A DNA stretch of 53,788 nucleotides from Minisyncoccota bacterium (GTDB lineage: Bacteria; Patescibacteriota; Minisyncoccia; Phycocordibacterales; XYD1-FULL-46-19): assembly GCA_041663165.1 (NCBI GenBank), contig JBAZRF010000006.1, positions 1-53,788 of the forward strand. The letters are read 5' to 3'. A program made the position numbers and the translations under genes. How positions within the stretch are numbered: position 1 is the first letter of the stretch; each line of letters starts with the position of its first letter. The notes beneath the pieces were generated by a model. The model made no database searches. It worked only from the letters and a program-made list of their open reading frames with translations, and was not told where the DNA came from. Below, in pieces: positions 11,290 to 46,494 of the stretch.

Positions 11290-12750
<1,461 letters not shown>

Positions 12751-13466: not shown

Positions 13467-13485
13467 TCTCCAGACCTTAAGTTCA

Positions 13486-13524: not shown

Positions 13525-13533
13525 GTATTGAGG

Positions 13534-13562
13534 TTGAAATCGGCTCATTTTTTTGATACAGT
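13534..13562 (+). promoter_or_regulatory. Candidate promoter for the tRNA-Ile/murDC unit
   Basis: TTGAAA (13534-13539), a 17-nt spacer, then TACAGT (13557-13562). Confidence 0.45.
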
Positions 13563-13645
13563 TTAAACTGTCCACCTTCGTTCGCCGGGGCGAGCTTCGG
13601 CGGGACGCTAAATTTTTATAGTCGCTTCGCTTCGTAAAAATTTGC

Positions 13646-13719
13646 GCGAGTATAGCTCAGATGGTTAGAGCGCGTCACTGATAATGACGAGGTCCCAGGT
13701 TCGAGTCCTGGTACTCGCA
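13646..13719 (+). tRNA. tRNA-Ile (anticodon GAT)
   Basis: A cloverleaf was folded by hand. The acceptor stem pairs GCGAGTA with TACTCGC. The D arm is AGCTCAGATGGTTAGAGC. The anticodon arm is CGTCA-CTGATAA-TGACG. The T arm is CCAGGTTCGAGTCCTGG. The discriminator is A and no CCA is encoded. Confidence 0.93.
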
Positions 13720-13724
13720 CTAAA

Positions 13725-20648: not shown

Positions 20649-20651
20649 CTA

Positions 20652-22667: not shown

Positions 22668-22718
22668 ACCATAACACGTCGTTCTTGTCTCAATGGCGGT
22701 GTCAATTCTCAATACATT

Positions 22719-23837: not shown

Positions 23838-23850
23838 ATTTTTGGTAAAA

Positions 23851-26902: not shown

Positions 26903-26903
26903 A

Positions 26904-29307: not shown

Positions 29308-29322
29308 ATTGCTTTATTTAAA

Positions 29323-30078: not shown

Positions 30079-30095
30079 TATCTAGATAATATAAT

Positions 30096-33059: not shown

Positions 33060-33862
33060 ATTCATTTTTGGCTAGAATCGGCAACCTTATTGATTGGATA
33101 AAAATTTCCCTTGCTCTTGGGGACGATCCGGTTAATTCTGCCTGGCTCTTTTTCCTGCGCTTTAGATTTTGGTTCTTAAAAAAAACTGTCGGGGACAAAC
33201 TGTTTAAATTAAGATTGAAAAAATTCGGCCAGCCGTTTGAAATTTTTGTTCGTGACAATGGTGATCTGGCCGTATTGAAGGAGGTGTTTTGGCTTGGGGA
33301 GTATGATCTTAATTTAGTTAAAGAGCCTAACACTATTCTTGATCTGGGCAGCAATATTGGCTTAACGGCAATTTATTTTAAGCTTAAATATCCCAAGGCT
33401 AAAATCTATGCTTTTGAACCGGATCCGACGACCTTTAAACAATTACTACTCAATACTCAAAAAATGCCGGAGATTAGCTGTTATAACTTGGCCATTAGTG
33501 GTCAAAGTGGTTCTCTGACTTTTTATCCTTACCCGGGTAGCAGCATGTCTTCATCGTTGATTAAGCGGTTGCCAAATCAAGAAGGGGTAACCGTTGACGC
33601 CGTCTCGCTTGACGATGTCCTGGCGCTTGTTGAGGTGGACCAAGTTGATCTTTTAAAGTTTGATGTCGAAGGAGCGGAAGATGAGATCTTTTCTGTCTGT
33701 TCAAAAATTGGTAATATCTCTCGATTGATCGGGGAGGTTCACCTTGATTTGATGAAAAAAGATTGGCCGTCTTTTCAGTTAATATTCAGGCAAAACGGTT
33801 TTGTTTTGACAGAAAAAAAGATTTCCCTCAATCGATTATTGGTCAATATTAAAAAATTGTAA
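33056..33862 (+). CDS. FkbM-family methyltransferase
   Basis: Contains ILDLGSNIGLTAIYF, YAFEPDP and LLKFDVEGAE. ATGA overlap with the upstream gene. Confidence 0.8.
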   Translation: MNSFLARIGNLIDWIKISLALGDDPVNSAWLFFLRFRFWFLKKTVGDKLFKLRLKKFGQPFEIFVRDNGDLAVLKEVFWLGEYDLNLVKEPNTILDLGSNIGLTAIYFKLKYPKAKIYAFEPDPTTFKQLLLNTQKMPEISCYNLAISGQSGSLTFYPYPGSSMSSSLIKRLPNQEGVTVDAVSLDDVLALVEVDQVDLLKFDVEGAEDEIFSVCSKIGNISRLIGEVHLDLMKKDWPSFQLIFRQNGFVLTEKKISLNRLLVNIKKL

Positions 33863-33865
33863 GCC

Positions 33866-34342
33866 ATGCGTTTTTTTCTCAAAAAAATATACACTATCAA
33901 AAATCGTTTTATGATTAAACTAAGACGTTGGTTTTATAAAAAGATTTTTGGTGCTTTTGGTCCTCGGTCCTCGGTCATTGGGAGAATAAGCGTCTATCAT
34001 CCGGAAAATATTTATTTCGGAGACAATAGCACGATCAATGACTTAGTTGTCTTGAATGCTCGAGAAAAAATAGTTATCGGTAATTACGTTCACATTTCTC
34101 CCGGCTGTATTATCAACGCTGGCGGACTCAATTACTCTCAAAAATTAACCAACCGCACTCACTTGCACCAGCCCGTTACCATTGGCGATGGCGTCTGGCT
34201 CGGTTCTGGATCGATAATAAATCCTGGCGTTGTTATTGGAGAGAATTCTGTTATTGGTGCCGGCTCAGTTGTCACGAAAGACATTCCGGCTAATGTCGTC
34301 GCCTTCGGCGTGCCGGCTCGAGTGTTTAAGAATATAGATTAA
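33866..34342 (+). CDS. Hexapeptide-repeat (LbH) sugar O-acetyltransferase
   Basis: Contains the hexapeptide repeats IGDGVWLGSGSIINPGVVIGENSVIGAGSVV. Confidence 0.85.
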   Translation: MRFFLKKIYTIKNRFMIKLRRWFYKKIFGAFGPRSSVIGRISVYHPENIYFGDNSTINDLVVLNAREKIVIGNYVHISPGCIINAGGLNYSQKLTNRTHLHQPVTIGDGVWLGSGSIINPGVVIGENSVIGAGSVVTKDIPANVVAFGVPARVFKNID

Positions 34343-34350
34343 GGCCAAAA

Positions 34351-35601
34351 TTATTTGCTGGCTGAATAAAAATAAAGTTGTCCAAAGTTAACGAAACGGG
34401 TCACGACTCTTGCCCAGACAACTCCCCACAGACCAAATAACGAACCTAAAATTAAGATTCCCACAATTTGAACAATCGAGGCCCAAATATTATAGCGGTA
34501 CATGGCCTTTTTGTTGCTGGTTGATTGCAAAAGAGTGTACGGTAAAATAGAAGCCGTGGCGATTATTGATAAGGCATATACTTGGGAATAGGCGATGGCT
34601 GCCAAATATTTTGGAAAAAAGAGTTTGAACAGGAAAGGAGCAGCCAAAATATAAACAAGCACGATTAACCCGATTAACGCCACGAGCTTAAAGGTTTTTT
34701 GCCAAATCTCTCTTTGGACGGTGGTTGGATCTTTTTCAGAAAATTTTGGTAAAGCCAGGGTACCGAGATTTTTTAAAGAGTTTTTTATTTGTTCAGCTGG
34801 AGCGATCGCAATCGAATAAACAGCTAATTCAATAGCGCCAAAAAGATGAAAGACAACTAACCGATCAAGATAGAGGGCAATTGTCCCAATTACTCCCATT
34901 GCTGATAAGTGCCAGCCGTAGGAGATTGTTTCGGGGTCAACCTTGTCGTTAAGCTTGAACTGGCGAGTTGCCCAAAACCAAAATCCAATGCGCAAAATTG
35001 TCCAAGGTAGAAAATAGGCGAGCATGATAAAAATTAGATCTTTTGTCAGAAATAAGGTTATGATCATCACTAAAGCCGAAGTGATTGAGGAAATGGAAAA
35101 ATAACGGCTCGAGAGGTCAAAGCGTTTTTTCCCTTGGAGGTAGGAATCATAGAGGCCATAAGGATCCATCAGGGGCAAGAAAATTGCGCCAATCAGCATA
35201 GCCGTCGCGAGCGGCCAATTGCCCTGGAGATAATAATAAAGGCTGAAAATGAGAGCGATCAGGGCGCCCAAGGTTCCCCATTTAATTCGAGTTTGGAGGG
35301 CTTCTTTTAGGGAGCCGTCATAGCCTCTAGCCACAGCCTGAGTTACGGAGGTGTTTAATCCTCCCAGATTGGTAACAGATAATATACCAACAACCGATAG
35401 AATATAGCGATAATTACCAAGGATTTCAGCGGGAAGGAGGTTGGCGAAGGCGATTGATAAAATGAAGGAGGAGAGGGACGAGATAAATTGAGCAGCCGAA
35501 AGCCAGAAACCGCCCTTGGTCAAATAAACCATGTCTGTTTTGACGTAGCGTTCGCTCCAGCGGAGGAAGCGATAAAACTGGTTTTTTAATCGGTTTATCA
35601 T
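34351..35601 (-). CDS. Wzx-type oligosaccharide/polysaccharide flippase (MOP superfamily)
   Basis: 416 aa with about 12 predicted TM helices. Its position inside a glycan locus is typical for a flippase. Confidence 0.7.
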   Translation of the reverse strand: MINRLKNQFYRFLRWSERYVKTDMVYLTKGGFWLSAAQFISSLSSFILSIAFANLLPAEILGNYRYILSVVGILSVTNLGGLNTSVTQAVARGYDGSLKEALQTRIKWGTLGALIALIFSLYYYLQGNWPLATAMLIGAIFLPLMDPYGLYDSYLQGKKRFDLSSRYFSISSITSALVMIITLFLTKDLIFIMLAYFLPWTILRIGFWFWATRQFKLNDKVDPETISYGWHLSAMGVIGTIALYLDRLVVFHLFGAIELAVYSIAIAPAEQIKNSLKNLGTLALPKFSEKDPTTVQREIWQKTFKLVALIGLIVLVYILAAPFLFKLFFPKYLAAIAYSQVYALSIIATASILPYTLLQSTSNKKAMYRYNIWASIVQIVGILILGSLFGLWGVVWARVVTRFVNFGQLYFYSASK

Positions 35602-35672
35602 CAGGCTTTATCTTAGCTCAAAATGGGCCTTTTTTCTAGCGCCGGTTGTTTTTTTATGCTATATTATAGCCC

Positions 35673-37733
35673 ATGAATATTAATAAGATTTTGCGTTGGG
35701 GCGTACTCGTCGGCTTATTTGTTATGCCCTTTTTGCCATTATTGATCTCTACCAGCGCTTTTTTTCCGTTTATTACCGGCAAGAATTTTGTTTTCCGGGT
35801 AATTGCCGAAATTGTTTTTGCTCTCTGGTTAATCTTGGCCTTGCGCGATAAAAACTATTGGCCCAGAAAATCCTATATCCTTTTTGCGGTTCTGGCTCTC
35901 TTGGCGGCAACCGGACTAGCCACGATCTTTAGTGAGAATCCCTATCGCAGTTTTTGGTCTAATTATGAACGAATGGGCGGCTTAGTTAGCTTGCTTCACC
36001 TTGGGGCCTATTTTATTGTCTTGATCTCTGTTTTAAAAAAGAAGGCCGAATGGTTTTGGTTAGCCAATACTGCTCTAGTTGCCAATTGGTTAATTGTTAT
36101 TTATTCACTTTTACAACTGGCTGGCAAGATTGAGATTCATCAGGGAGGGGTTCGCTTGGACGCAACCCTGGGGAACGCGACCTATCTGGCTGTTTATCTT
36201 TTATTCAATATTTTTATTTCGGCCTATTTATTCTCATCAATAAAGAATATCGGCATAAGAGTTCTTTATGGACTAACCATTTTGGTTGATTTATTTTTGC
36301 TTTATCATACGGCTACTCGCGGGACGATTCTTGGTTTGTTAGTTGGTCTAGTTATTTTTGCCGCTGCCGCTGTTTTTCGGGGGTCTAGGGTTCAGAAAAA
36401 ATGGGCCGCGGGAGTAGTGGTTATAATCCTTATCTTGGCCGGCGGTTTTCTTTTGGTCAAAGATGCTTCATTTGTCAGGACTAGTCCAGTTTTGTCTCGC
36501 TTTGCCAGTATCTCTTTAACCGAGACAACGACCCAATCCCGTTTCTTGATTTGGAATATGAGCTGGCAGGGATTTAAGGAGCATCCAGTCTTAGGTTGGG
36601 GACCGGAGAACTACAGTATTGTTTTTAGTAAATATTATGTTCCCGCGATGTGGCGACAAGAGCCATGGTTTGACCGCTCGCATAATGTTTTCTTTGATTG
36701 GCTGATCGACGCCGGCCTGCTCGGTCTTCTCGCCTATCTCTCAATTTTTGTTTCGGCGCTATATTATCTTTGGCAGTCGAAAAGGGCGTCAATCTTTAAT
36801 TTAACCGAGAAAGCCATTCTGACTGGTTTGCTCGCTGGCTATTTCTTCCATAATATCTTTGTCTTCGATAATCTAATTAGCTACCTTTACTTTTTTGCGG
36901 TCATCGCCTTCGTTCATTTTGGGGTAACCAAAGAAAACAACGAAGAAGAAATAAAAGTAAAAAACAATTATCAAGCTAATAAAAAGAATTTGTCTTCGGC
37001 CGGGCAAATTACCACCGGAGTGAACGTTGCTTCCGTTGCCGTAATCGTTGTTTTACTGGTGTCCCTTTACTATGTCGATTACAAACCTTGGCATGTTTCG
37101 CGTGAGTTGATCGTGGCTATTCATCCCCAAACGTCGGTTGAACAAAGTTTAGCCGCTTTTCAGAGAATTTTTCAGCAAAATACTTTTGGCTCTAGCGAGG
37201 CCCGCGAACAATTAGTCAATAAAGTCCTCAATGTTCTAAACGATCCAAAAGTTTCTAATGAACTGAAAGGTCAATTTGTTAAATTGACCGAAGAGCAGAT
37301 TAAAATTCAGCTAACCAATTTTAACCGAGATGCTCGTTCCTATTTATATTTTGGCTCATTTATGTCAGCGATTGGTAACTCTGAACAGGGGATTGATTAT
37401 TTGCTAAAAGCTCAAGCTCTATCACCCAAGAAACAACAAATCTACTTTGAACTGATCGGAGTCTATGTCCGAATGCAAAATGCTCCCAAAGCTCTCGCTT
37501 TGGCAAAAGAAGCTTATGATCTTGATCCAGCCTATCCCGAGGCCCGTAAGATATATGCCCTCGTCCTATTGATGACAAATCAAAATAAAACAGCTCAAGA
37601 GATATTAGCCCCAATAAAAGACTCTGCCACTTACTACAATGACGAGCGTTTTAAGAGTTTGTATGAACAACTGGGAGATACTCAGTCGCTGCAGGAAATA
37701 AAAAATCTTCAATCAGCGGCAAATAAAAAATAG
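35673..37733 (+). CDS. O-antigen ligase/polymerase-like (Wzy_C) membrane protein fused to C-terminal TPR repeats
   Basis: Polytopic N-terminal ~420 aa containing HTATRGTILGLL and DRSHNVFFDWLIDAGLLGLLAYL. The C-terminal ~230 aa are TPR-like (AQALSPKKQQIYFELIGVY..., AYDLDPAYPEARK). Confidence 0.7.
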   Translation: MNINKILRWGVLVGLFVMPFLPLLISTSAFFPFITGKNFVFRVIAEIVFALWLILALRDKNYWPRKSYILFAVLALLAATGLATIFSENPYRSFWSNYERMGGLVSLLHLGAYFIVLISVLKKKAEWFWLANTALVANWLIVIYSLLQLAGKIEIHQGGVRLDATLGNATYLAVYLLFNIFISAYLFSSIKNIGIRVLYGLTILVDLFLLYHTATRGTILGLLVGLVIFAAAAVFRGSRVQKKWAAGVVVIILILAGGFLLVKDASFVRTSPVLSRFASISLTETTTQSRFLIWNMSWQGFKEHPVLGWGPENYSIVFSKYYVPAMWRQEPWFDRSHNVFFDWLIDAGLLGLLAYLSIFVSALYYLWQSKRASIFNLTEKAILTGLLAGYFFHNIFVFDNLISYLYFFAVIAFVHFGVTKENNEEEIKVKNNYQANKKNLSSAGQITTGVNVASVAVIVVLLVSLYYVDYKPWHVSRELIVAIHPQTSVEQSLAAFQRIFQQNTFGSSEAREQLVNKVLNVLNDPKVSNELKGQFVKLTEEQIKIQLTNFNRDARSYLYFGSFMSAIGNSEQGIDYLLKAQALSPKKQQIYFELIGVYVRMQNAPKALALAKEAYDLDPAYPEARKIYALVLLMTNQNKTAQEILAPIKDSATYYNDERFKSLYEQLGDTQSLQEIKNLQSAANKK

Positions 37734-38074: not shown

Positions 38075-40582
38075 ATGTCTATTTTGTCGAAAATATTAGG
38101 TGATACCAGTAGCCATTATGTTAAGAAAATCGCCCCGATCATTGTCCAAATAAATGACCAAGAGGCGGGGATTTCAGCCTTATCTGACGAAGCGCTCAAA
38201 GCCAAAACAGAAGAGTTTAAGGTCCGACTAGGTAACGGAGAAACTTTGGATGAGATTTTACCCGAGGCCTTTGCCGTGGTGCGCGAAACCGCTAAGCGCC
38301 TCTTGGGCCAACGCCACTTTGACGTTCAGCTCATTGGTGGTTTGACACTCCATCAGGGCAAAATTGCCGAAATGAAAACAGGCGAAGGAAAAACCCTTGT
38401 GGCCACTCTGCCTGTTTACCTAAACGCTCTAACTGGTAAAGGGGTGCATATTGTGACGGTCAACGATTATCTGGCCCGCCGTGACGCCGTCTGGATGGGA
38501 CAAATCTATGCTTGGCTGGGTTTATCGGTGGGAGTGTTAAATAACCAAGCTTCTTATTTATATGATCCTAACCATCAAGATCTAGATAAGGAGCGAGACA
38601 TTGAAGGTTCGTTTAAGGTGATTCATGAATTTTTGCGGCCCTGTTCTCGATCCGAGGCTTATTTGGCCGATATTCTTTATGGTACTAATAACGAGTATGG
38701 TTTTGATTATCTGCGCGATAATATTGCCTATCGACCGATCGACCAGGTTCAACGGCCCGACCCTCTCTCTCGTCACAACTTTGCGATTGTTGATGAGGTT
38801 GACTCGATTTTAATTGACGAATCGCGCACCCCGCTAATTATTTCAGCGCCAAGTGGCGAGTCCGAGAAATTATATGGCACTTTTGCTCAAATTGCTCGAA
38901 CTCTCACCAAGGAGATAGATTACACCGTTGATGAAAAGTTCAAATCAATTTCTTTGACTGATGAAGGCATAACCCGCGCCGAGAAGACGTTGGGCGTAGA
39001 AAACATTTATACCGATAAGGGGATCAAATATGTTCATCATCTAGAAACGGCGGTCAGAGCTAAGGCGTTATTTGAGCTCGATCGCGATTACGTTGTTCGT
39101 GAAGGCGAAATTGTCATTGTTGATGAGTTTACCGGCCGCCTTCAACCTGGGCGTCGCTGGTCTGAAGGCTTGCACCAGGCGATCGAAGCTAAGGAGGGAG
39201 TTAAGGTTCAAGAAGAGTCTCGAACTTTTGCCACTATTACCCTCCAAAATTATTTTCGACTTTATCAAAAATTAGCGGGCATGACCGGTACGGCTCAAAC
39301 TTCAGCCGAAGAATTTCTTAAGGTTTATGGACTCGAAGTTATCTCGGTTCCGACCAATAAGCCAAACCAAAGGGTTGATCTACCTGACTACATCTTTCAG
39401 AGTGAAAAAGGGAAAATTGCCTCAGTTGTTAAAAAAGTTAAGGAGATTAATCAAACTGGCCAGCCGGTTTTGATTGGCACTTCGTCAATTGAGAAAAACG
39501 AGTTGTTATCAGCCTATTTTAAAAAAGAGGGGATTGAACACAAAATTTTAAATGCTAAAAATCACGAAGAGGAAGGCAGCGTCATTGCTGGTGCTGGCCG
39601 AAAAGCCAGCGTGGTTATCGCCACCAATATGGCCGGTCGCGGCGTTGATATTAAATTGGGTGGCCCAACGCCAACAACCGAAGAACAAGATGAAGTAAGA
39701 AACTTGGGCGGGCTTTTTGTCTTGGGGACCGAACGTCATGATGCTCGCCGAATTGACGATCAGTTACGTGGACGGTCTGGTCGCCAAGGCGATCATGGAA
39801 CAACCCAGTTTTACGTGTCACTTGAAGATGATTTGATGAGAGTTTTTGGTTCAGAACGGGTAAAAGGAATGATGGGTCGTTTCGGTATTCCGGAAGATGA
39901 GCCAATCCAAAATAGTTTCGTGTCAAAAACGCTCGAGGGGGCGCAAGGAAAAATTGAGGGTTTCAATTTTGATATGCGTAAGCATTTACTTGAGTATGAT
40001 GACGTGGTGAGCCATCAACGGCAGACAATATATGACCGGCGTAATAAAATTCTTTTGGGCGGCAAGGAAGAAATCGATGAATTTATAACCAAGGCCCTGG
40101 AAGCCTTGCCCGTAACCCCTGAAGATAAAGATCAATTATTGCAAGGAGTAACCCAGAAGAGACAAGAATTGGGCGAAGAAAAATTTACCTCTCAAGCTCG
40201 TCAGACAATTCTTCAGGTCATTGACATGTATTGGGTAGAGCATCTTGAAGCCATTGATTACATGCGGGGGAGCGTGCGCTTGCGCGCCTATGGTCAACGC
40301 GACCCACTGGTAGAATTTAAGAAAGAGGGACTGTCTTTGTTTAAGGATATGGAATTGGCGATTTTTGGCAACGTCTTAGAGTTGCTGGCTAAAATTGAAG
40401 GCGAAATCAAAACTGAAGAAATTAAAATTAAGGAAGTTCATGATCAGGCCGAATTGATTCTTAACTCAAGCTCAGCCCAAGCGAGTTCAACTCCGGCCAA
40501 ATCAAATGAGCCCAAAGTTGGCCGTAATGATCCCTGTCCGTGCGGGAGTGGTTTGAAGTACAAAAAGTGCCATGGGAAATAA
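38075..40582 (+). CDS. secA: Preprotein translocase ATPase SecA
   Basis: The start was moved to ATG 38075 (MSILSKILG), downstream of the terminator. Contains the Walker A motif [10 protein letters not shown], the [10 protein letters not shown] box and the C-terminal zinc motif [14 protein letters not shown]. Confidence 0.93.
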
Positions 40583-41054
40583 GATTAAAGCTATTTTTTT
40601 TGATTGGGGGCGAACATTGCATGACCCGGAGACAGACACCCTGTTCCCGGGTGTCTTTGAATTGATAAGGGAACTCTCGAAGGACTATCTTCTGGTTTTG
40701 ATTTCGCTCGCGGTAACCGCCTCTTCAGAAAAGCGGCGGGAGAGTATTGAGGAGAGCGGAATCGCCAAATATTTTAAGTTGATTTTGGTAAACGAAGAGA
40801 ATAAGGACGAAATGTACGAACGAGCCCTAGCCGAACTCGGTGTCAAGCCAGAGGAGGTCGCGGTAGTGGACGACCAAGTTTGTCGGGGGATTAGGTGGGG
40901 CAATAGTCGGGGAGCAATGACCATTTGGCTAAAAAGGGGTAAATTTGCCGACGAGTTACCAACCAAAGAAACAGGTGATCCTGCCCAAGTAATTGGTGAT
41001 ATTAGGGAATTAAGTCCTATATTCATAAATAGGGCCTGTTTAAAGGACAGTTAA
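40572..41054 (+). CDS. HAD-superfamily hydrolase-like protein (short, 160 aa)
   Basis: Motif I-like is IFFDWGRTL. Motif III/IV-like is VAVVDDQ. Overlaps the secA stop by 11 nt. Confidence 0.6.
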
Positions 41055-41284: not shown

Positions 41285-43657
41285 ATGTTTTCTTCTCTCG
41301 CCAAATTAGGCAAACAACTCATCGTCCTCGCTCTTGTTGCGGGGGTTTTGATGATGCCAGTCTTGCCTTTGGTTGCAGAAGAGATAACCAATGCCCCCGA
41401 TGTTTCTTCCCCTGTTGTTTCAAGTGTCTCAGATACTCTCACTTCATTACCGGCAATTGAGGCTCCCGCTGAATCAGTCTCGTCAGTAATTACTCCCGAC
41501 CCGATTCCTGGTGCCGAGGCGATAATCATCGATGCGTCTACTACTCCAATCTCGACACCGACGATTGATTTGCCTGCCTCTAGCACTCCAGTAGTAAGTG
41601 AAGATACTATCGAGATTCAAACAACACCAACTCCCTCCCCGGTGGTAATAGACCCAGTTATGGCGGATGTAGCGGAAAACAGTTTTACCACCTTAAACGA
41701 TGGAGCTAACCCTCTTCCTATTTTGCCCGCAACCGATATCGTTGGTAGCGAAGAAAATGATTTTCAAACTCTAATAACGACGCCAACTGAGATACCAGAC
41801 AATTTAGCCATTAGTGACGAGAATCCTTTTGGCGAGATTATCAATACGGACAATCTAGCGATTAGCGATGAGGGGAACATAGAAACAACGAGTTCGGGAA
41901 CAGACAACCCGTGGGCTCTGAGCGACGAAAATTCATTCGTTACTCTCTCTGAGTCGGTCGACACGGTAGCACTTAGCAACGAACGGTCTTTTAATACGAT
42001 ATCCGTTCCCACTGATACCTTGGCGATTAGTAGCGAAAATTCTTTTGTTACTGAAGAGCCGATGATTAGTGCCCCAACGATTAGTGGTGAACACAGCTTT
42101 GTCACCGCCTCAACTCCGGTTGATACCCTAACGGTTAGCTCGGAGCGAAGTTTTAATACCTTAAGCGTCCCGATCGATGTTCTTGCTATTAGTGCCGAAC
42201 GAAGCTTTACAACTTTGACGGTACCGATCGACAATCTCGCTATCAGTGGTGAAAACAATTTTATAACGGCAACGGTTCCTATTGATACCTCAGCCATCAG
42301 TGCTGAGCACAATTTTACGACGCTTCCCGGTGGGCCAATTACTGAACCGGCAATCAGCGCTGAACACAGTTTTACAACGATGACTGTTGTCATTGATAAT
42401 CTCGCCATCAGCGGAGAAAACTCATTTACGACCAGGGCTGTTCCTGTTGATACTCTGGCAATTAGTCCTGAACAAAGCTTCACCACTGCAGCGATCGTTG
42501 TCGACAAACTTGCAATCAGCGGAGAAAACTCATTTACGACCAGCACGGTTCCTATCGATACCTTGGCGGTGAGCGAGGAAAATTCATTTACAACAAGGAA
42601 TTCTGAAATTGATACGCTCGCTGTAAGCGATGAAGTAGCCTTTAATACCCTTAACAACCCAATTGATAAATTAGCGGTTAGCGATGAGGGGTCATTTACC
42701 ACCACTGGAACACCAACAGACAATTTAGCCATTAGCGATGAAAATTCGTTTGTTACTTTGTCTGGTGGCGGCGGGGGTGGTGGCGGAGGCGGAAGCAGTC
42801 GCGTTCCTGTTGCCGGTATCGTTTTGGGCGAGCAAACTTATCGTTGCCCAATTTACTTAACGAAGTTTATTAAACTTGGCCAACCTAACAATCGTCGTGA
42901 AGTAATTAAGTTACAGGCTTTCTTAAAAGTTTTTGAAGGATTTAATAATCTTAAATTAACTGGTGTTTATGACCAGGCTACTTACCGAGCGGTCAAAATC
43001 TTTCAGACCCGTTACTTTAAAGATATTCTTGGCCCATGGCAACTCGGCCACGAGCCTACCGGTTATGTTTATATCACCACTCGCCAAGCGATCAACAATA
43101 TCTATTGTGGTCGGGATACCGAGGATAACTTACGTCTCCATAATCAATTAGCCTATGAGTACAATTTGGCGACGGGTGAAAATCTAGAAACACCGACCGG
43201 GGGAGCCGAAGGCGGTTACTTTATCGTCCCAACGACGACGCCGACGTCTACTCCAACCATAACGGTTTCGATTATAAGACCAAATATCTTTTTGGCCGGA
43301 GTTGGGGAGTTACTGGACTTTATTAGAGACAATTTCTGTTGGCTGTTGAATCTGCTTCTACTTCTTTTGATTTTCTTTTTGCTCTGGCTGCTTTGGTTAA
43401 CGGGTCGCGATGATGGTAATGATAATGATTCTCAAGCCAGTGACTTAGACACCCCTGTTCCTTTGCCTCCTGGTGCTATCCCGATTGAGGAAATCGTTGA
43501 TCAAGAGGATGAAGAAGAATTGGCTAAATTAGCCGAGGAGGACGAAGCTAAACTCGAAATACTCGATAATAACCCTTGGCAGGAGGCCATTGTGCTTGGG
43601 CCAGAGACTTCTTTTGCTGAAGAAGTTACTTTCCCGCCGGACGAAAAAGAATTTTAA
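41285..43657 (+). CDS. Membrane-anchored surface protein with ~20 tandem 18-aa repeats, a PG-binding-like domain and a C-terminal TM helix
   Basis: Signal peptide MFSSLAKLGKQLIVLALVAGVLMMPVLPLVAEE. Repeats of the type VPIDNLAISGENNFITAT. A Gly10 run. PG_binding_1-like LQAFLKVFEGFNNLKLTGVYDQATYRAVKIFQ. TM helix FCWLLNLLLLLLIFFLLWLLWL. Acidic tail. Confidence 0.85.
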   Translation: MFSSLAKLGKQLIVLALVAGVLMMPVLPLVAEEITNAPDVSSPVVSSVSDTLTSLPAIEAPAESVSSVITPDPIPGAEAIIIDASTTPISTPTIDLPASSTPVVSEDTIEIQTTPTPSPVVIDPVMADVAENSFTTLNDGANPLPILPATDIVGSEENDFQTLITTPTEIPDNLAISDENPFGEIINTDNLAISDEGNIETTSSGTDNPWALSDENSFVTLSESVDTVALSNERSFNTISVPTDTLAISSENSFVTEEPMISAPTISGEHSFVTASTPVDTLTVSSERSFNTLSVPIDVLAISAERSFTTLTVPIDNLAISGENNFITATVPIDTSAISAEHNFTTLPGGPITEPAISAEHSFTTMTVVIDNLAISGENSFTTRAVPVDTLAISPEQSFTTAAIVVDKLAISGENSFTTSTVPIDTLAVSEENSFTTRNSEIDTLAVSDEVAFNTLNNPIDKLAVSDEGSFTTTGTPTDNLAISDENSFVTLSGGGGGGGGGGSSRVPVAGIVLGEQTYRCPIYLTKFIKLGQPNNRREVIKLQAFLKVFEGFNNLKLTGVYDQATYRAVKIFQTRYFKDILGPWQLGHEPTGYVYITTRQAINNIYCGRDTEDNLRLHNQLAYEYNLATGENLETPTGGAEGGYFIVPTTTPTSTPTITVSIIRPNIFLAGVGELLDFIRDNFCWLLNLLLLLLIFFLLWLLWLTGRDDGNDNDSQASDLDTPVPLPPGAIPIEEIVDQEDEEELAKLAEEDEAKLEILDNNPWQEAIVLGPETSFAEEVTFPPDEKEF
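41790..42762 (+). repeat. In-frame 54-nt tandem repeat array (about 18-20 units)
   Basis: The motif LA[IV]S-x-E-x-SF-x-T recurs every 18 codons. The first and last units share GACAATTTAGCCATTAG. A 29-nt exact repeat occurs at 42407 and 42515. Confidence 0.9.
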
Positions 43658-43711: not shown

Positions 43712-43741
43712 TTGACAAATCGTCTAAAACTGGTTAGGAAT
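43712..43741 (+). promoter_or_regulatory. Candidate promoter TTGACA-17-TAGGAAT
   Basis: TTGACA (43712-43717), a 17-nt spacer, then TAGGAAT (43735-43741). The same motif recurs at 45775-45805. Confidence 0.45.
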
Positions 43742-43887
43742 GGGGGCGGAAAGATCACTGTCTGAACACTGGCTTGCCTTATAGCTTGCCGGTATGAGAT
43801 GGTTTTGAATAGATTAAGTTTAGTGTAGTTAGTGTCGACGAAGTCTCAAACATCCCTGCTTGAGTGCGGGGGAGAAAGAGGTGCTCC

Positions 43888-45711
43888 ATGAAGACGGGTT
43901 CTCGCGCGTTTGTGTTAGTAGTCTCGTTGTTGGCTGTGACTGTGCTGCTGGGAGGGTGCCCGTTACCGATATCGGTGAGCGGGACACTCTATGACGCCGC
44001 TGGCGGGATCGCTCGCGACGGCCAGGTCCAGAATGGTGACCGGATCGTAGCCCCGGGCGGTGGACGACTGACAGCTATCGGGGTAAAGCGGGACGACGTT
44101 CTCATCACTCCGATTGTCGACAGCGCCAAGGGCATAACGGCCCAAACCGGCTACATCGTAGCTGGGGTGGTATCGATCGCCGTCGTCACCGGGGCGACAG
44201 TCGCCATCGTTGACGGCTGTGAACCGCCGGAACCGGTGGTGATTGACATTCCGCCCCTGACCGACGACCTGTTGGTCAATGTTGGCGGAGTCGTCACCTT
44301 CACCCTGCTTCGTGGTTCTACTGGCGAAGGTGAGGGCGAAGGCGAGTGTGAGCTTGACGCGAAGATCGTTGCCAAAGTTGGCGACGAGACTCTCAAGTCC
44401 GGTGACGAAGTCGCCGAGGGTGAGAGCGTGAGCTTCTCGACGGTTGTCACCGGAGGTGGTGGAAACCTGACTTACCTCTGGGACTTCGGCGAGGGCGATC
44501 TTGATCACCGGCCGTCGTTCACCTCGTCTTTCAATGGCCCAGGCAACGTCGACGTGACCTTGATGGTATCGGACGGTGGTTGTCAAAATCTCGATAGCCT
44601 CTCCTTTGTCGTCGTGTCTGCGGGAGAAGGTGAAGGTGAGGGTGAAGGAGAAGGGGAAGGCGAAGGCGAGGGAGAGGGCGAGGGTGAAGGAGAGCTAATG
44701 GGCTCAATAACCGTCCACCTGCTCCCAAGCGCGGCAGTCAGTGCCGGCGCACGCTGGCAGGTTGATTACGGTCCCTTGCAGGCCAGTGGAGCGACGGTTT
44801 CCGATCTCGCACCAGGGGAGCACTATCTCGCCTTTGCGGAGGTGAGCGGTTTCGTTGCTCCTATACCGATGACGGCAACGATTGCTGCCGGTCAGACCCT
44901 GGTTCTGTCTGCGACATACAGTGTCGCTACTGTCGAGGTTCCCAATCTCGCCGGAAAGAATCAGGCAGAAGCCGGCGTGGCCTTGGCCAGGGTTGGTCTA
45001 GCGATTGGTGAGGTGACGACCGAGGCGAGTTCAACGGTTGATATAAACACCATCATCCGTTGGTCGCCACACGGCAAGGTCCCAATCGGTTCGTCGGTTA
45101 ACATTGTTATCTCGACTGGTCCGGGGACGTCGACGGTTCCCAACTTGATCGGGCTGTCTCAAGCAGACGCTGAGTCTGCGATCAACGACACCTGTCTCAC
45201 GTTGGGGACGATCACTACCGCAACCAGTGCAACGGTTCCAGCGGGCCACGTCATCAGTACGACGCCGCCAGCCGGGACAACTGCTCCTTGTGAGTCAGCG
45301 ATTTGTCTCGAGGTGTCGACGGGGCCAACGCCCCAACCGATGTCGGTCAAGATCACCGACCCGTTGCCCGGTCAGGTGTACTACGTCGGGGACAAAGTAC
45401 CCGTCAGCGTTCTGCCTGATGGGGATCCGTCTCTGGGTGCCTACCGGCTTCGTATAGGAGCGGCTGGCAAGAAGGACATGGAGAAGATCGCGAAGGGTTT
45501 GATTTCGATCAAGGACCTTCTCGACGCCAAGGTTCTGCCATCGGCAACGTTCGAGAACGTGGTAATGGGGCAACTATATACCACGAAATTCGAGCTCAAC
45601 TTGATGGGCGAGGCGTTCTTTCTTGCCTATCTGGAGTTGACACCCGACGACGGAGGGGAGTTGACGTACGTGACTGACCAGGTCCCGTACGTCGTCAACC
45701 CCAAGAAGTAA
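43888..45711 (+). CDS. G+C-rich lipoprotein with a PKD domain, two (Gly-Glu)n linkers and two PASTA domains (607 aa)
   Basis: GGAGAAAGAGG lies upstream of ATG 43888. Lipobox MKTGSRAFVLVVSLLAVTVLLGGC. PKD-like LTYLWDFGEGDLDHRPSFTSSFNGPGNVDVTLMVSDGG. PASTA-like VPNLAGKNQAEAGVALARVGL...NIVISTGP and VPNLIGLSQADAESAINDTCL...CLEVSTGP. Codons are GC3-rich. Confidence 0.85.
   Translation: MKTGSRAFVLVVSLLAVTVLLGGCPLPISVSGTLYDAAGGIARDGQVQNGDRIVAPGGGRLTAIGVKRDDVLITPIVDSAKGITAQTGYIVAGVVSIAVVTGATVAIVDGCEPPEPVVIDIPPLTDDLLVNVGGVVTFTLLRGSTGEGEGEGECELDAKIVAKVGDETLKSGDEVAEGESVSFSTVVTGGGGNLTYLWDFGEGDLDHRPSFTSSFNGPGNVDVTLMVSDGGCQNLDSLSFVVVSAGEGEGEGEGEGEGEGEGEGEGEGELMGSITVHLLPSAAVSAGARWQVDYGPLQASGATVSDLAPGEHYLAFAEVSGFVAPIPMTATIAAGQTLVLSATYSVATVEVPNLAGKNQAEAGVALARVGLAIGEVTTEASSTVDINTIIRWSPHGKVPIGSSVNIVISTGPGTSTVPNLIGLSQADAESAINDTCLTLGTITTATSATVPAGHVISTTPPAGTTAPCESAICLEVSTGPTPQPMSVKITDPLPGQVYYVGDKVPVSVLPDGDPSLGAYRLRIGAAGKKDMEKIAKGLISIKDLLDAKVLPSATFENVVMGQLYTTKFELNLMGEAFFLAYLELTPDDGGELTYVTDQVPYVVNPKK
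44623..44694 (+). repeat. (GGN-GAR)12 hexanucleotide repeat encoding (Gly-Glu)12
   Basis: Twelve consecutive Gly-Glu codon pairs were read directly. A shorter GEGEGEGECE tract lies at 44323-44352. Confidence 0.9.
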
Positions 45712-45732
45712 TTGTTGTTCCCATTTGTGTTC

Positions 45733-45772
45733 ATGGCCGAGGAGTGCTTGCACTCCTCGGCCATTGTTTTTT
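45733..45772 (+). terminator. Rho-independent terminator
   Basis: ATGGCCGAGGAGTGC pairs perfectly with GCACTCCTCGGCCAT, followed by TGTTTTTT. Confidence 0.85.
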
Positions 45773-45774
45773 GG

Positions 45775-45805
45775 TTGACAAAAGAGTCTTCCCTATGCTA
45801 GGAAT
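45775..45805 (+). promoter_or_regulatory. Candidate promoter TTGACA-18-TAGGAAT
   Basis: TTGACA (45775-45780), an 18-nt spacer, then TAGGAAT (45799-45805) followed by AGGG, paralleling 43712-43745. Confidence 0.45.
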
Positions 45806-45873
45806 AGGGCATCAAAAGATCGATTTATAAAGCATTATTAGTGGCTTTTTAAGCCATAATTATTAAGTAAAAT

Positions 45874-46494
45874 ATGAGTAAATTTGCAAAGTTAATTAGC
45901 TTGATTGCGCTTGCTCTTTTGGTTATGGTAGCGGGTACTTCAGCGGTTTCGGCGGCTGGTCTCGCTGCAACCATCACTTCGCCAACTGCCGGGGCGACCT
46001 ACACTGTTGGTCAAACCGTCAATTTGTCAGCGACCAGTGCTGGTGCTGTCGGAGCAGTTAATTATATTTGGTCGTTCAGCGACGGCACTGCCAGTCGCAC
46101 TGGCCAAACTCAGACCGTTGCTTTTACTGCTGCTGGATCAAAGACTATTACCTTAATGGCCGGAGATGCCTCTGGTGCCAATAGCATTAAAACGGTTAAT
46201 GTCACAGTTAACGCCGGTTCTTCACAAAAGCCGGTCATTAGTAATATTGCTACCAGCAATATTACGCAGACCAGCGTGACAATTACCTGGACAACCGATA
46301 TCGTTTCGTCTAGTCGTGTGATCTATGACTCGACCAGCCACCCGGATATTTCCGGACAAGTGGCCCCGAACTTTGGTTATGTCGCCTCCACTCCGGAGAC
46401 CGACACGGTAACTAAGGTTACTAGTCATACTGTTACAATCTCTGGTTTGAGCCCGGGAACTAAATATTATTTCCGCGTTCTTTCTCAAGGCTAA
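45874..46494 (+). CDS. Secreted PKD plus fibronectin type III domain protein (206 aa)
   Basis: Signal peptide MSKFAKLISLIALALLVMVAGTSAVSA. PKD-like NYIWSFSDGTASRTGQTQTVAF...VNVTV. FN3-like ITQTSVTITWTTD...HTVTISGLSPGTKYYFRV. Codon usage is host-like. Confidence 0.85.
   Translation: MSKFAKLISLIALALLVMVAGTSAVSAAGLAATITSPTAGATYTVGQTVNLSATSAGAVGAVNYIWSFSDGTASRTGQTQTVAFTAAGSKTITLMAGDASGANSIKTVNVTVNAGSSQKPVISNIATSNITQTSVTITWTTDIVSSSRVIYDSTSHPDISGQVAPNFGYVASTPETDTVTKVTSHTVTISGLSPGTKYYFRVLSQG

What the first reader, a model, noticed from the sequence alone, without database searches (positions are those of the whole stretch)
43712..45772. Compositionally foreign, G+C-rich lipoprotein gene combining PKD, two PASTA domains and (Gly-Glu)n linkers
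The coding region is visibly far more G+C-rich than its surroundings. For example, I counted 40 G+C in the 60 nt at 44161-44220. Third codon positions are mostly G/C, whereas neighbouring genes prefer A/T. The gene has its own promoter-like motif, an SD-like GGAGAAAGAGG and a perfect terminator. The product is a lipoprotein (LLGGC lipobox). It has a PKD domain flanked by GEGEGE linkers, an unassigned beta-rich region, two PASTA domains and an unassigned C-terminal domain. PASTA domains are classically parts of PBPs and PknB-type kinases, so a stand-alone PASTA surface lipoprotein is unusual. Horizontal acquisition, possibly from a host lineage, to bind host peptidoglycan or muropeptides is an attractive hypothesis but remains inference.
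Basis: partly seen in the sequence, partly recalled or inferred. Interest (0 to 1): 0.7.

Follow-up and report, generated by a model that had tools for sequence, protein, structure and literature searches.

The report
GC-rich variable surface lipoprotein of Paceibacterota
The G+C-rich gene is real, but it is neither a misassembly nor a recent foreign import: it is the local version of a fast-changing, membrane-anchored surface protein that sits at the same chromosomal spot, and is G+C-rich, in every related ultra-small (CPR) bacterium examined.

Summary
The gene at 43888-45711 (+) has 58.9% GC and 65.6% GC3, against 43.7% and 44.4% for 41 other ORFs (z about 6). Its tetranucleotide signature is also deviant (z 10). 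The product is a 607-aa lipobox protein: N-domain, (GE)4, PKD, (GE)12, beta-sandwich, two PASTA domains and an Ig-like C-domain.

The interpretation of recent horizontal acquisition or a chimera is not supported. Ten related Paceibacterota/Vogelbacteria genomes carry a homologous lipoprotein gene in the same slot: secA, repeat protein, SLOT, PKD/fn3, and murB in most. The promoter and terminator are native-type. In all but the one 50%-GC genome (L100) the slot gene is clearly G+C-richer than its flanks. No empty site was found.

The family is tiny: 13 hits among 1.84 billion representatives. It is modular and fast-evolving (33-56% identity, flanks 63-92%). Its allele classes disagree with the flank tree. 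The G+C excess also covers the clade-specific N- and C-domains. Flank synonymous sites are near saturation, so the excess is not a relic of one old transfer. Something keeps it up, and that cause is unresolved.

The most likely function is a membrane-tethered, non-catalytic binding stalk. It resembles the ectodomain of PrkC/PknB without the kinase and probably binds peptidoglycan-type ligands.

The parts
43712..43741 (+). Promoter-like element: TTGACA (-35), 17-nt spacer, TAGGAAT (-10-like)
   Evidence: Pattern search gives 3 matches in the window against 0.27 expected. The element is conserved upstream of the orthologous genes in L001, L003, L005 and L013. A strict sigma-70 scan does not report it.
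43742..43887 (+). 5' leader of about 145 nt, partly conserved among relatives, ending in SD GGAGAAAGAGG (43871-43881)
   Evidence: Alignment A3. No Rfam match at E <= 1. Predicted fold is no better than shuffles, z -0.39.
43888..45711 (+). CDS of the 607-aa slot-family lipoprotein (stop included)
   Evidence: ORF. ATG aligned with orthologue starts. GC 0.589, GC3 0.656.
43888..43959 (+). Signal peptide with lipobox LLGG-C (Cys24)
   Evidence: Sequence. G23 and C24 are invariant in the 8-member family alignment.
43960..44316 (+). N-domain type A (residues 25-143), family-specific, with a very hydrophobic segment at residues 88-108 (nt 44149-44211)
   Evidence: Homologous to the N-domains of P0001, L003 and P0002. 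Kyte-Doolittle 19-residue window 2.48. AF2 pLDDT below 50. No Pfam hit.
44323..44346 (+). (GE)4 acidic linker
   Evidence: Six-frame regex search. TRF period 12.
44344..44622 (+). PKD module (residues 153-245; Pfam match at 175-232)
   Evidence: PF00801 34.9 bits (cut-off 23.5) and PF18911 30.7 bits. PDB 4l9d, E 8.6e-4. Present in L003, absent from P0001/L001, L005 and L007. AF2 low confidence.
44623..44694 (+). (GE)12 acidic linker, an imperfect 6-nt DNA repeat
   Evidence: TRF period 6, 10.8 copies, 83% matches. Repeat family D2.
44698..44928 (+). Beta-sandwich module (residues 271-347), PEGA/CarboxypepD_reg-like in sequence pattern; unique to the window among the slot genes compared
   Evidence: AF2 pLDDT 79-92, all-beta. 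49% identical to repeated modules of P0009 (contig L102, 61% GC); the same module type occurs in P0015 next to (GE)n and PKD. No Pfam hit at E <= 1.
44929..45327 (+). Two PASTA domains (residues 348-413 and 414-480)
   Evidence: PF03793 78.2 bits, 2 stretches. PDB PknB/PrkC ectodomains, E down to 5.8e-13. AF2 pLDDT 88-96; Foldseek hits 3py9, 5e12 and 5e10.
45328..45708 (+). Family-specific C-domain (residues 481-607): Ig-like beta-sandwich with a two-helix insertion ('long' allele class)
   Evidence: AF2 pLDDT 93, pTM 0.86. Only generic Ig/fn3/Hoc-like fold matches, query-normalised TM <= 0.62. Only 13 relatives among 1.84 billion representatives. 61% identical to L001/P0001, 33-37% to the short class.
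45733..45774 (+). Intrinsic terminator: perfect 14-bp stem, 4-nt loop, T-run
   Evidence: A G+C-rich hairpin lies at the same place in every orthologous locus.
41285..43657 (+). Upstream neighbour of the conserved surface-protein cluster: 790-aa secreted repeat protein with PG_binding_1 and a C-terminal TM
   Evidence: Present upstream of the slot in the related loci whose upstream flank was recovered.
45775..46494 (+). Downstream neighbour: a second TTGACA-N18-TAGGAAT promoter (45775-45805) and the 206-aa secreted PKD/fn3 gene (45874-46494), used here as the synteny anchor

Best explanation
Window 43888-45711 encodes the resident allele of a small protein family restricted to one clade of Paceibacterota (Parcubacteria, CPR). 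I call it the 'slot family'. Its gene always lies between a peptidoglycan-binding repeat-protein gene and a PKD/fn3 gene, and in most of the genomes murB follows.

Shown. The gene has a native-type promoter, leader, SD and terminator. The product has a lipoprotein signal, a family-specific N-domain with a hydrophobic segment, acidic (GE)n spacers, PKD, a beta-sandwich, two PASTA domains and a family-specific Ig-like C-domain. It has no catalytic or signalling domain. The distal half has the same layout as the PrkC ectodomain (PASTA repeats plus a terminal Ig-like domain).

Inferred. After Sec export and lipidation at Cys24 the protein is tethered to the outer face of the cell membrane. The charged (GE)n spacers and the beta-modules hold the PASTA/Ig tip tens of nanometres out, through the wall. 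There it binds a peptidoglycan-type ligand (muropeptide or lipid-II-like). The ligand could belong to the cell's own wall or to a partner cell. So the protein acts as an adhesin or scaffold, not as a transducer.

The locus evolves by module gain and loss, PASTA copy-number change and allele replacement or paralogue sorting, as expected of a surface protein under diversifying selection.

The G+C richness is a property of the whole family in nearly every genome, not a mark of recent import or misassembly. About half comes from amino-acid composition and half from codon choice. It must be actively maintained. The most likely cause is that alleles circulate by homologous replacement within a wider, partly higher-GC Paceibacterota gene pool. 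Gene-specific selection on codons or biased gene conversion are less likely.
For: Synteny and family. P0001 sits between a gene of more than 590 aa and a PKD/fn3 gene. L002/3, L005/6, L007-9, L013, L091, L100/101, L103 and L104 all have one or two lipobox genes in the slot. Three of these loci were recovered identically in two or more separate assemblies.

Composition. Slot genes are 51-61% GC, flanks 39-54%. They share an oligonucleotide signature with each other (r 0.43-0.76; 0.56-0.76 for those over 1 kb). They do not share it with the low-GC flanks. In the 50%-GC genome L100 they look native (r 0.69).

The clade-specific N- and C-domains are as GC3-rich as the widespread modules. Flank four-fold sites are 39-44% identical against 28% at saturation. 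A single old import should therefore have ameliorated.

Family limits. The C-domain has 13 hits among 1.84e9 representatives. Those fetched with a complete N-terminus all carry a lipobox. Among GTDB species genomes it was found only in two Paceibacterota.

Rapid evolution. Slot proteins are 33-56% identical in pieces, flanks 63-92%. Architectures differ. The WIN/L001 'long' C-domain class is 32-40% identical to the short class of L003, L005 and L007, although their flanks are 82% identical. The short class is 49-61% identical to the distant L100. PASTA best hits are mosaic across the classes.

Native signals.

Structure. pLDDT is 80-96 for residues 270-607 and the top fold hit is 3py9, the whole PrkC ectodomain. 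C-domain pLDDT is 93. PASTA ectodomains bind muropeptides, and a role in peptidoglycan binding has been suggested for the PrkC Ig-like domain (PMC3601408).
Against: No ligand, localisation or expression data exist. PASTA domains do not all bind muropeptides (PMC3601408). Some family members have no PASTA domain at all (P0162, L103 slot), so PASTA cannot be the only functional core.

Lgt and LspA were not seen in the window and could not be checked genome-wide. The hydrophobic segment in the N-domain could be a transmembrane pass, which would contradict the proposed topology. AF2 gives no model for the N-domain.

The allele-class discordance can equally come from ancient tandem paralogues with differential loss, since L100 and L091 have two genes in the slot. 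No near-identical alleles shared by distant genomes were found, so direct evidence of recent exchange is lacking.

Read-level continuity of this particular window could not be checked. The exact protein is not on record in any other assembly.
Confidence: 0.6

Rival explanations
1. Recent horizontal acquisition by this genome of a gene from a G+C-rich donor, for example the host lineage.
For: Strong compositional, codon and tetranucleotide deviation confined to one gene. The PASTA pair is 42-51% identical to multi-PASTA proteins of 55-65% GC Acidobacteriota, Nitrospira and Hydrogenedentota. The beta-module is 49% identical to repeats in P0009, whose contig is 61% GC. (GE)n linkers also occur in Hydrogenedentota proteins.
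Against: The gene is present at the same locus in all 10 related genomes and no empty site was found. The best whole-gene relatives are the syntenic CPR genes. The N- and C-domains are clade-specific and equally G+C-rich. 41 of 43 PASTA modules are closest to other family members. Promoter and terminator are native and orthologous. There are no mobility genes, tRNA or flanking direct repeats at the gene.
Confidence: 0.04
2. Assembly chimera: a G+C-rich fragment from another organism was joined into a CPR contig.
For: Sharp composition boundaries. The exact protein is not found in any other assembly.
Against: The boundaries coincide with the start codon and the terminator. The leader and the downstream spacer, right up to the CDS, align with orthologous loci. 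The same kind of G+C-rich gene sits in the same slot in independently assembled relatives from JGI, ENA, Logan and NCBI, and three of those loci were recovered identically in two or more assemblies. The protein's N- and C-domains are homologous to those of the syntenic genes.
Confidence: 0.01
3. One ancient transfer of a (GE)n-linked PASTA surface-protein gene from a G+C-rich lineage (Hydrogenedentota- or Acidobacteriota-like) into the ancestor of the clade. The present G+C excess is a slowly ameliorating relic.
For: The module kit (PASTA, PKD, PEGA-like beta module, GE linkers, lipobox) recurs in such lineages (P0013, P0015, L051). The commonest nearest outsider of the family's PASTA modules is a Hydrogenedentes protein, best outsider for 10 of 43 modules.
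Against: Flank four-fold sites are already 39-44% identical against 28% at saturation within the closest group. The deeper relatives (60-65% protein identity) are beyond saturation, yet the excess persists in nearly all of them and is largest in L104. The clade-specific domains are just as G+C-rich. This idea may explain where the PASTA modules came from, but not why the composition persists.
Confidence: 0.12
4. The gene is native, and its codon bias reflects translational selection in a very highly expressed surface protein. NNC is preferred over NNT. The rest of the G+C excess comes from amino-acid composition.
For: The strongest signal is the C-ending preference at two-fold pyrimidine-ending codons (0.72 against 0.29, z 8). 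By general knowledge that is the usual direction of translational selection. The gene has a perfect -35, a long leader, a strong SD and a strong terminator. About 55% of the excess is amino-acid composition.
Against: G-ending Lys/Glu/Gln codons are also preferred (0.70), which points to a general GC bias. GAPDH, the likely glycolytic workhorse, shows no such bias (Y 0.25). Neither does the PKD/fn3 gene, which has the same promoter type (0.32). By general knowledge CPR bacteria grow slowly and have few rRNA and tRNA genes, so translational selection should be weak. No ribosomal-protein genes were available for a test.
Confidence: 0.13
5. The locus is a recombination hot spot and GC-biased gene conversion raises its G+C.
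For: There are mosaic module relationships and allele classes discordant with the flanks. The neighbouring PKD/fn3 gene has raised GC3 in some relatives (L003 0.55, L100 0.65).
Against: A GC3 excess of 12-30 points is, by general knowledge, far larger than the effects attributed to gBGC in bacteria. The boundaries are sharp at the CDS ends. The upstream repeat-protein gene is equally variable but is not G+C-rich.
Confidence: 0.08

Closest known systems
Extracellular sensor region of PASTA Ser/Thr kinases (S. aureus PrkC/Stk1, PDB 3PY9/3M9G; M. tuberculosis PknB, PDB 2KUI, 5E12)
   Same: Linear PASTA repeats outside the membrane. In PrkC they are followed by a terminal Ig-like domain, as here. 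There are sequence hits (E 5.8e-13) and the top structural hits. These ectodomains bind muropeptides (PMC3601408).
   Different: No kinase domain and no transmembrane helix: NF033483 scores 86 bits against a cut-off of 450. The protein is lipid-anchored instead. It has extra N-domain, PKD, beta-sandwich and (GE)n spacers. The C-domain has no sequence similarity to the PrkC Ig-like domain. With nothing on the cytoplasmic side, it cannot signal the same way.
Uncharacterised non-kinase multi-PASTA proteins of Hydrogenedentota, Acidobacteriota (Bryobacterales, Terracidiphilus), Nitrospira and Pseudomonadota, for example HOQ31962.1 (Ca. Hydrogenedens), P0013 and the L051 lipoprotein
   Same: PASTA arrays 40-59% identical per module. 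Some have a lipobox (L051) and E/G-rich linkers (P0013, P0007). They combine with PKD and PEGA-like modules (P0015).
   Different: They lack the slot family's N-domain and C-domain. They are not at this locus. They are not compositional outliers in their own G+C-rich genomes.
PASTA domains of class B penicillin-binding proteins (PBP2x type)
   Same: Same domain family, PF03793.
   Different: No transpeptidase or dimerisation domain in the window protein.
Variable surface lipoprotein loci of wall-less or host-associated bacteria (Mycoplasma Vlp/Vsp, Borrelia Vls/Vmp). This comparison rests on general knowledge.
   Same: Lipobox-anchored surface proteins with repetitive linkers that vary strongly in length and modules between close relatives. 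They sit at a fixed locus with a conserved promoter and leader.
   Different: There is no sign here of silent cassettes, invertible promoters or perfect slippage-prone tracts. The (GE)n DNA is an imperfect repeat (83% matches). Variation is seen between species, not shown within a clone.
Genomic islands or horizontally acquired genes recognised by atypical composition
   Same: Deviant GC, GC3, codon usage and tetranucleotide signature confined to one gene.
   Different: The locus is conserved in all relatives, regulatory DNA is native and there are no mobility signatures. The anomaly is inherited with the family.

Membership tests
PASTA domain (Pfam PF03793) | Match to the family HMM above the gathering score | tested here: met
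   78.2 bits against 23.2, two stretches at residues about 348-413 and 416-477.
PASTA domain (Pfam PF03793) | Small alpha + 3-beta globular fold arranged linearly | tested here: met
   AF2 pLDDT 88-96 with helix plus strands per module. Foldseek hits PknB/PrkC PASTA structures, TMt up to 0.82.
Stk1/PknB-family PASTA Ser/Thr kinase (NCBIfam NF033483) | N-terminal Hanks-type kinase domain, single TM and whole-protein score above the cut-off | tested here: not met
   86.4 bits against a cut-off of 450, and only model positions 348-502 are matched. No Pkinase hit in Pfam.
Class B PBP with C-terminal PASTA (PBP2x type) | Transpeptidase (PF00905) and PBP dimerisation domains | tested here: not met
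   No such Pfam hit at E <= 1.
Bacterial lipoprotein (signal peptidase II substrate) | N-terminal basic n-region, hydrophobic h-region and a lipobox ending in Cys (PROSITE PS51257-type pattern) | tested here: met
   The sequence MKTGSRAFVLVVSLLAVTVLLGG-C fits the pattern as I recall it. G23 and C24 are invariant in the family alignment. A lipobox Cys is present in the further members fetched with a complete N-terminus.
Bacterial lipoprotein (signal peptidase II substrate) | Genome encodes Lgt and LspA, and the protein is acylated | not testable with these tools
   Neither gene lies in the 53.8-kb window. The rest of the genome is not available.
PKD domain (PF00801 / PF18911) | HMM match above the gathering score | tested here: met
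   34.9 bits against 23.5 and 30.7 against 27. AF2 confidence for this module is low with the shallow alignment.
PEGA / CarboxypepD_reg-like beta-sandwich (for residues 271-347) | HMM match to PF08308 or PF13620 | tested here: inconclusive
   No hit at E <= 1 for the window protein. The resemblance rests only on sequence pattern and the all-beta AF2 model. Relatives of the module occur in P0009 (DUF7743) and P0015.
Recently acquired genomic island | Atypical composition | tested here: met
Recently acquired genomic island | Absent from the same site in close relatives | tested here: not met
   The slot is occupied by a family member in all 10 related genomes.
Recently acquired genomic island | Mobility signatures: integrase or transposase, tRNA target, flanking direct repeats | tested here: not met
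   None near the gene. Only the unrelated contig of P0010 has an rve transposase.
Diversity-generating retroelement target | Reverse transcriptase plus a template repeat / variable repeat pair | tested here: not met
   No repeat matching the gene elsewhere in the window. No RT domain in any of the ORFs scanned, which were those of about 150 aa or more. An element elsewhere in the genome cannot be excluded.
Slot family (defined here) | Lipobox, family C-domain and position between the repeat-protein and PKD/fn3 genes | tested here: met
   C-domain 61% identical to L001/P0001 (66% over the phmmer-matched stretch, E 1.4e-29). Synteny.

The most novel reading that the evidence does not exclude
The slot is a dedicated diversification locus for a CPR cell-surface adhesin. 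Complete alleles and single modules are swapped among related Paceibacterota by homologous recombination. The conserved promoter/leader and terminator, and the purine-rich (GE)n-coding repeats, serve as joints. The gene's composition and oligonucleotide signature therefore follow a shared gene pool rather than the resident chromosome. The PASTA/Ig tip would determine which partner cell wall the epibiont can attach to.
Probability: 0.2. Interest if true: 0.75.

Novelty: new variant of a known kind. Interest (0 to 1): 0.5.

Why it matters
How CPR/Patescibacteria recognise and attach to partner cells is largely unknown outside a few cultured Saccharimonadia. This locus is a concrete, testable candidate. 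It encodes a lipid-anchored, fast-evolving stalk whose tip has a peptidoglycan-sensor-type (PASTA plus Ig-like) architecture, and it is present in a whole clade of Paceibacterota.

The finding is also a caution for genome scans. A gene can carry a strong 'foreign' signature (GC, codon use, tetranucleotides) and still sit at the same site across the whole clade. Composition alone does not establish recent transfer or a chimera.

Finally, a compositional anomaly that persists past synonymous saturation is unusual. It invites a test of allele circulation against selection against biased conversion in organisms with tiny genomes.

Tried and rejected
- The exact protein was looked up in public assemblies and is not on record.
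- The full-length family alignment A1 was too divergent for locus scanning. It was replaced by A2, the PASTA pair plus C-domain.
- The metagenome scan added only three relevant loci, two of them already held.
- The viral contig scan and PHROGs gave no relatives, so a phage origin is not supported.
- The third protein-database search used a concatenate of the N-domain, PKD and beta-module without linkers and returned nothing. That search was wasted.
- DGR hypothesis: no template/variable repeat and no RT in the window (and the Pfam scans).
- Regulatory RNA in the 145-nt leader: no Rfam hit and no unusual stability.
- Donor search by oligonucleotide signature was not discriminating. Acidobacteriota loci and the 50%-GC Paceibacterota locus L100 all give r about 0.6.
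- AF2 gave no usable model for the N-domain or PKD with the shallow alignment.
- Fold searches of the C-domain gave only generic Ig-like matches.
- Literature searches for PASTA in Patescibacteria, for GEGEGE linkers and for Paceibacteria surface lipoproteins found nothing relevant.
- Translational selection could not be tested, because no ribosomal-protein genes are available from the window or the fetched loci.


Full report
1. WHAT IS IN THE SEQUENCE

The ORF lister gives GTG 43864 to 45711. The likely start is ATG 43888. It lies 6 nt after GGAGAAAGAGG (43871-43881) and aligns with the start codons of all orthologues. The 607-aa product starts MKTGSRAFVLVVSLLAVTVLLGG-C, a lipoprotein signal with Cys24.

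Pfam finds a PKD domain (residues 175-232, E 1.6e-8) and two PASTA domains (E 4.6e-22). (GE)4 and (GE)12 runs flank the PKD module. They are the only (GE)n>=3 runs in any frame of the window. A perfect 14-bp hairpin plus T-run follows the stop (45733-45774). Upstream lies TTGACA-17 nt-TAGGAAT (43712-43741).

2. THE COMPOSITION ANOMALY IS REAL

The gene has GC 0.589 and GC3 0.656. The 41 other ORFs average 0.437 (sd 0.024) and 0.444 (sd 0.034), giving z of about 6 for both.

I recoded the protein with the window's own codon frequencies, which gives an expected GC of 0.522. So about 8.5 of the 15 excess points come from amino-acid composition: Gly 13%, Val 11.5%, Ala 9%, Thr 9%, Pro 6%, Lys 3%. 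About 6.8 points come from codon choice (z 5.5).

The largest codon effect is at two-fold codons. The C-ending share of Phe/Tyr/Asn/Ile/Asp/His codons is 0.72 against 0.29 +/- 0.05. The G-ending share of Lys/Glu/Gln codons is 0.70 against 0.34 +/- 0.07.

The tetranucleotide profile is the most deviant in the window (z 10.4). After normalising for base composition it correlates with the window mean at only r = 0.15, against 0.82 +/- 0.11 for other segments. All modules of the gene share the bias, GC3 0.60-0.75, except the (GE)n tracts.

3. WHOSE GENOME

The window holds the 3' end of 23S, 5S, an unlinked 16S and tRNA-Ile. It also carries cell-envelope genes: FtsW, Mur ligases, SecDF, SecA, MurB and a large glycan cluster. 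Orthologues of the downstream PKD/fn3 gene are named 'Candidatus Paceibacterota bacterium' and 'Candidatus Vogelbacteria bacterium' by their sources. That places the window in the Parcubacteria group of Patescibacteria.

4. THE DECISIVE COMPARISON: THE SAME SLOT IN RELATIVES

The best database hit, P0001, is 56% identical over the C-terminal 255 residues and 32% over the N-domain. On its contig it lies between a gene of more than 590 aa and a 207-aa PKD/fn3 gene.

I used the PKD/fn3 protein as an anchor and fetched its orthologues' contigs. I found the order secA, (variable small gene), repeat protein, SLOT, PKD/fn3, murB, (DUF4349), gatB, gap. It holds in L002/3/4, L005/6, L007/8/9 (= GTDB genome JBAZMZ01), L013, L091, L100/101 (GCA_001890035.1) and L104. 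L103 (GCA_964422485.1) has the same order without murB.

Every slot holds one or two genes that start with a lipobox. Apart from the PASTA-only second gene of L091, each ends with the same C-domain or a recognisable variant of it. No empty site was seen in ten genomes.

Three of the loci were recovered with identical sequence in two or three separate assemblies from JGI, ENA, Logan and NCBI. The upstream promoter, parts of the leader, the SD, the terminator hairpin and the next promoter all align between the window and these loci.

This excludes a chimera as the general explanation.

5. THE ANOMALY TRAVELS WITH THE FAMILY

GC/GC3 of the slot genes and their flanks:

| Locus | Slot gene GC/GC3 | Flanks |
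|---|---|---|
| Window | 0.59/0.66 | 0.46/0.45 |
| L001 | 0.54/0.58 | spacers 0.31-0.44 GC |
| L003 | 0.54/0.60 | 0.45/0.45 |
| L005 | 0.53/0.59 | 0.45/0.42 |
| L007 | 0.59/0.66 | 0.47/0.48 |
| L013 | 0.56/0.62 | 0.45/0.41 |
| L091 | 0.55 and 0.57 GC | 0.46 GC |
| L104 | 0.61/0.73 | 0.39-0.46 GC, 0.36-0.49 GC3 |
| L103 | 0.55/0.57 | 0.40-0.53 GC |
| L100 | 0.57/0.65 and 0.51/0.56 | about 0.52/0.56 |

Only in L100, whose locus is 50% GC, are the two slot genes inside the range of their neighbours.

Slot genes share an oligonucleotide signature with each other (r 0.43-0.76; 0.56-0.76 for those over 1 kb). They resemble the low-GC flanks poorly (0.15-0.59) and the L100 flanks best.

6. WHY A SINGLE OLD IMPORT DOES NOT EXPLAIN IT

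(a) The family-specific parts are as GC3-rich as the widespread modules. The last 115 codons have GC3 0.54-0.76 and the first 140 codons 0.54-0.71.

(b) The C-domain has only 13 relatives with E <= 1e-3 among 1.84 billion representative proteins. Those fetched with a complete N-terminus all have a lipobox, an N-domain, E/G-rich linkers, 0-3 PASTA domains and the C-domain. In 185,579 GTDB species genomes the C-domain was found only in two Paceibacterota. Everything else matched the PASTA pair alone.

(c) I extracted 671 PASTA modules. Of the 43 from slot proteins, 41 are most similar to a module of another slot protein (47-86%). Outsiders reach only 40-59%. The commonest nearest outsider is a Hydrogenedentes protein.

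(d) Between the window and its closest relatives, four-fold sites of identical residues in the flanking genes are only 39-44% identical, against 28% expected at saturation. The deeper relatives have 60-65% flank protein identity and are beyond saturation. A foreign GC3 should have decayed by now, yet the excess is present in nearly all lineages.

So something keeps it up. I cannot decide which force is responsible. The candidates are treated as the preferred reading and the rivals in the corresponding sections.

7. THE LOCUS IS HYPERVARIABLE

Flank proteins are 63-92% identical between the window and L003, L005 and L007. The slot proteins align only in pieces, at 33-56%. Architectures:

- Window: N-A, GE, PKD, GE, beta, PASTA x2, C(long)
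- L001: N-A, GE, PASTA x2, C(long)
- L003: N-A, GE, PKD, GE, PASTA x1, C(short)
- L005 and L013: N-B with a TSP3-like motif, PASTA x2-3, C(short)
- L007: N-C, GE, PASTA x2, C(short)
- L104: N-A, PASTA x4, C(long-like)
- L103: N-B, (GE)17, PKD, C-like, no PASTA
- P0002 and P0003: five PASTA
- P0159: two C-domains
- P0162: no PASTA
- L091 and L100: two genes in the slot

The C-domain identity matrix disagrees with the flank tree. The window is 82% identical to L003, L005 and L007 in its flanks but only 34-37% in the C-domain, and 61% to L001. L003, L005 and L007 are 58-61% identical to each other and still 49-61% to the distant L100. PASTA best hits cross these classes.

Two readings fit. Alleles may be exchanged within the clade, or ancient tandem paralogues may have been lost differentially.

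8. STRUCTURE AND LIKELY FUNCTION

AF2 with a 15-sequence alignment gives pLDDT 80-96 for residues 270-607. That region comprises a beta-sandwich, PASTA1, PASTA2 and the C-domain. The N-domain and PKD score below 50. The best PDB match of the whole model is 3PY9, the entire extracellular region of S. aureus PrkC (three PASTA domains plus a C-terminal Ig-like domain). PknB PASTA structures follow. Sequence search of the PDB agrees.

The C-domain alone folds with pLDDT 93 as an Ig-like sandwich with a two-helix insertion. It has only generic Ig, fn3, pilin or Hoc-like neighbours.

PASTA ectodomains of PrkC and PknB bind muropeptides, though not every PASTA domain does. A role in peptidoglycan binding has been suggested for the PrkC Ig-like domain (PMC3601408).

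The window protein has no kinase (NF033483: 86 bits against a cut-off of 450), no PBP domain and no other catalytic domain. I therefore read it as a lipid-tethered binding stalk. Its neighbours are also wall-related surface proteins: a PG_binding_1 repeat protein upstream and a PKD/fn3 protein downstream, with murB next.

Whether the ligand is the cell's own wall or that of a partner cell is not known. The rapid turnover of modules fits an interaction surface under diversifying selection from a partner or from phage.

9. WHAT REMAINS ODD

(a) The cause of the persistent G+C-rich signature.

(b) A segment of about 20 aa in the N-domain (residues 88-108) that is as hydrophobic as the signal peptide. 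Its position is conserved and it is usually bracketed by cysteines. A full membrane pass would put the PASTA part on the wrong side of the membrane. A re-entrant second anchor or a disulfide-stapled hydrophobic loop is more likely.

10. VERDICT

The recent-HGT and chimera interpretation is not supported. The gene belongs to an undescribed, clade-restricted, modular surface-lipoprotein family whose compositional anomaly is inherited with the locus.

Interest is moderate. It offers a concrete candidate for CPR cell-surface interaction and an unusual, still unexplained case of composition decoupled from the genome. It has no demonstrated new mechanism.

Noticed in passing
window 1-13720: The rRNA genes are unlinked and in an unusual order. 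The 23S 3' end (1-943) and 5S (1016-1121) come first. About 10 kb of protein genes follow (FtsW/RodA, glycosyltransferase, sugar transferase, epimerase, FolD, PAP2, SecD, SecF). Then come 16S (11289-12751) and tRNA-Ile(GAT) (13646-13720).
   Followed up: no
window 41285-43657: The upstream neighbour is a 790-aa secreted protein. It has about 20 degenerate 18-aa 'LAISxENSFTT' repeats, a Gly9 run, a PG_binding_1 domain and a C-terminal TM. Its length varies from 480 to 795 aa among relatives, but it is not G+C-rich. The 322-aa antisense ORF at 41764-42732 is a by-product of the repeats.
   Followed up: partly
window 43712-43741 and 45775-45805: The same promoter-like motif, TTGACA-N17/18-TAGGAAT, precedes both the slot gene and the PKD/fn3 gene. 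It is conserved at both places in the related loci. There are 3 matches in the window against 0.27 expected.
   Followed up: partly
window 44149-44211 (residues 88-108): The N-domain contains a very hydrophobic Gly/Val/Ile/Ala segment. It is conserved in position across the family and usually flanked by Cys residues. In P0160 it follows the lipobox Cys by only 7 residues. Its topological role is unclear.
   Followed up: partly
window 19551-37733: A long surface-glycan gene cluster. It holds at least seven GT1/GT4 glycosyltransferases, several FkbM and class I methyltransferases, an AsnB-like amidotransferase, a hexapeptide acyltransferase, a flippase (34351-35601, minus strand) and a Wzy/O-antigen-ligase protein with TPR repeats (35673-37733).
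   Followed up: no
window 17909-19546: A 545-aa protein with a weak match to the TrwB/type IV coupling-protein ATPase domain (E 1.2e-6). It lies between a DUF4015 glycosyl hydrolase gene and the glycan cluster.
   Followed up: no
window 40572-41054; L100 1057-2079; L103 3466-3861: The spot between secA and the repeat-protein gene is also variable. It holds a HAD hydrolase in the window, an ASCH gene plus a ParD/HigB toxin-antitoxin pair in L100, and an ACT_7 gene in L103.
   Followed up: no
L100 4347-7890; L091 3515-5378: Two genes occupy the slot in some relatives. L100 has two full family members in tandem. L091 has a 392-aa member plus a separate 170-aa signal-peptide protein made of two PASTA domains, each with its own promoter and terminator.
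   Followed up: partly
contig of P0010 (ENA ERZ1426829, 3262 bp): A slot-family protein with a duplicated C-domain-like module lies next to an rve-family transposase gene. This is the only mobility gene seen near any family member.
   Followed up: no
L003 8001-8621; L100 8001-8666: The PKD/fn3 neighbour gene has raised GC3 in some relatives (0.55 in L003, 0.65 in L100) but not in the window (0.44).
   Followed up: no
P0013, P0015, P0007, L051 4035-4061: Long E/G-rich linkers of the (GE)n type join PASTA, PKD and PEGA-like modules in proteins of Hydrogenedentota and in unassigned G+C-rich contigs. No literature on this linker type in bacteria was found.
   Followed up: partly
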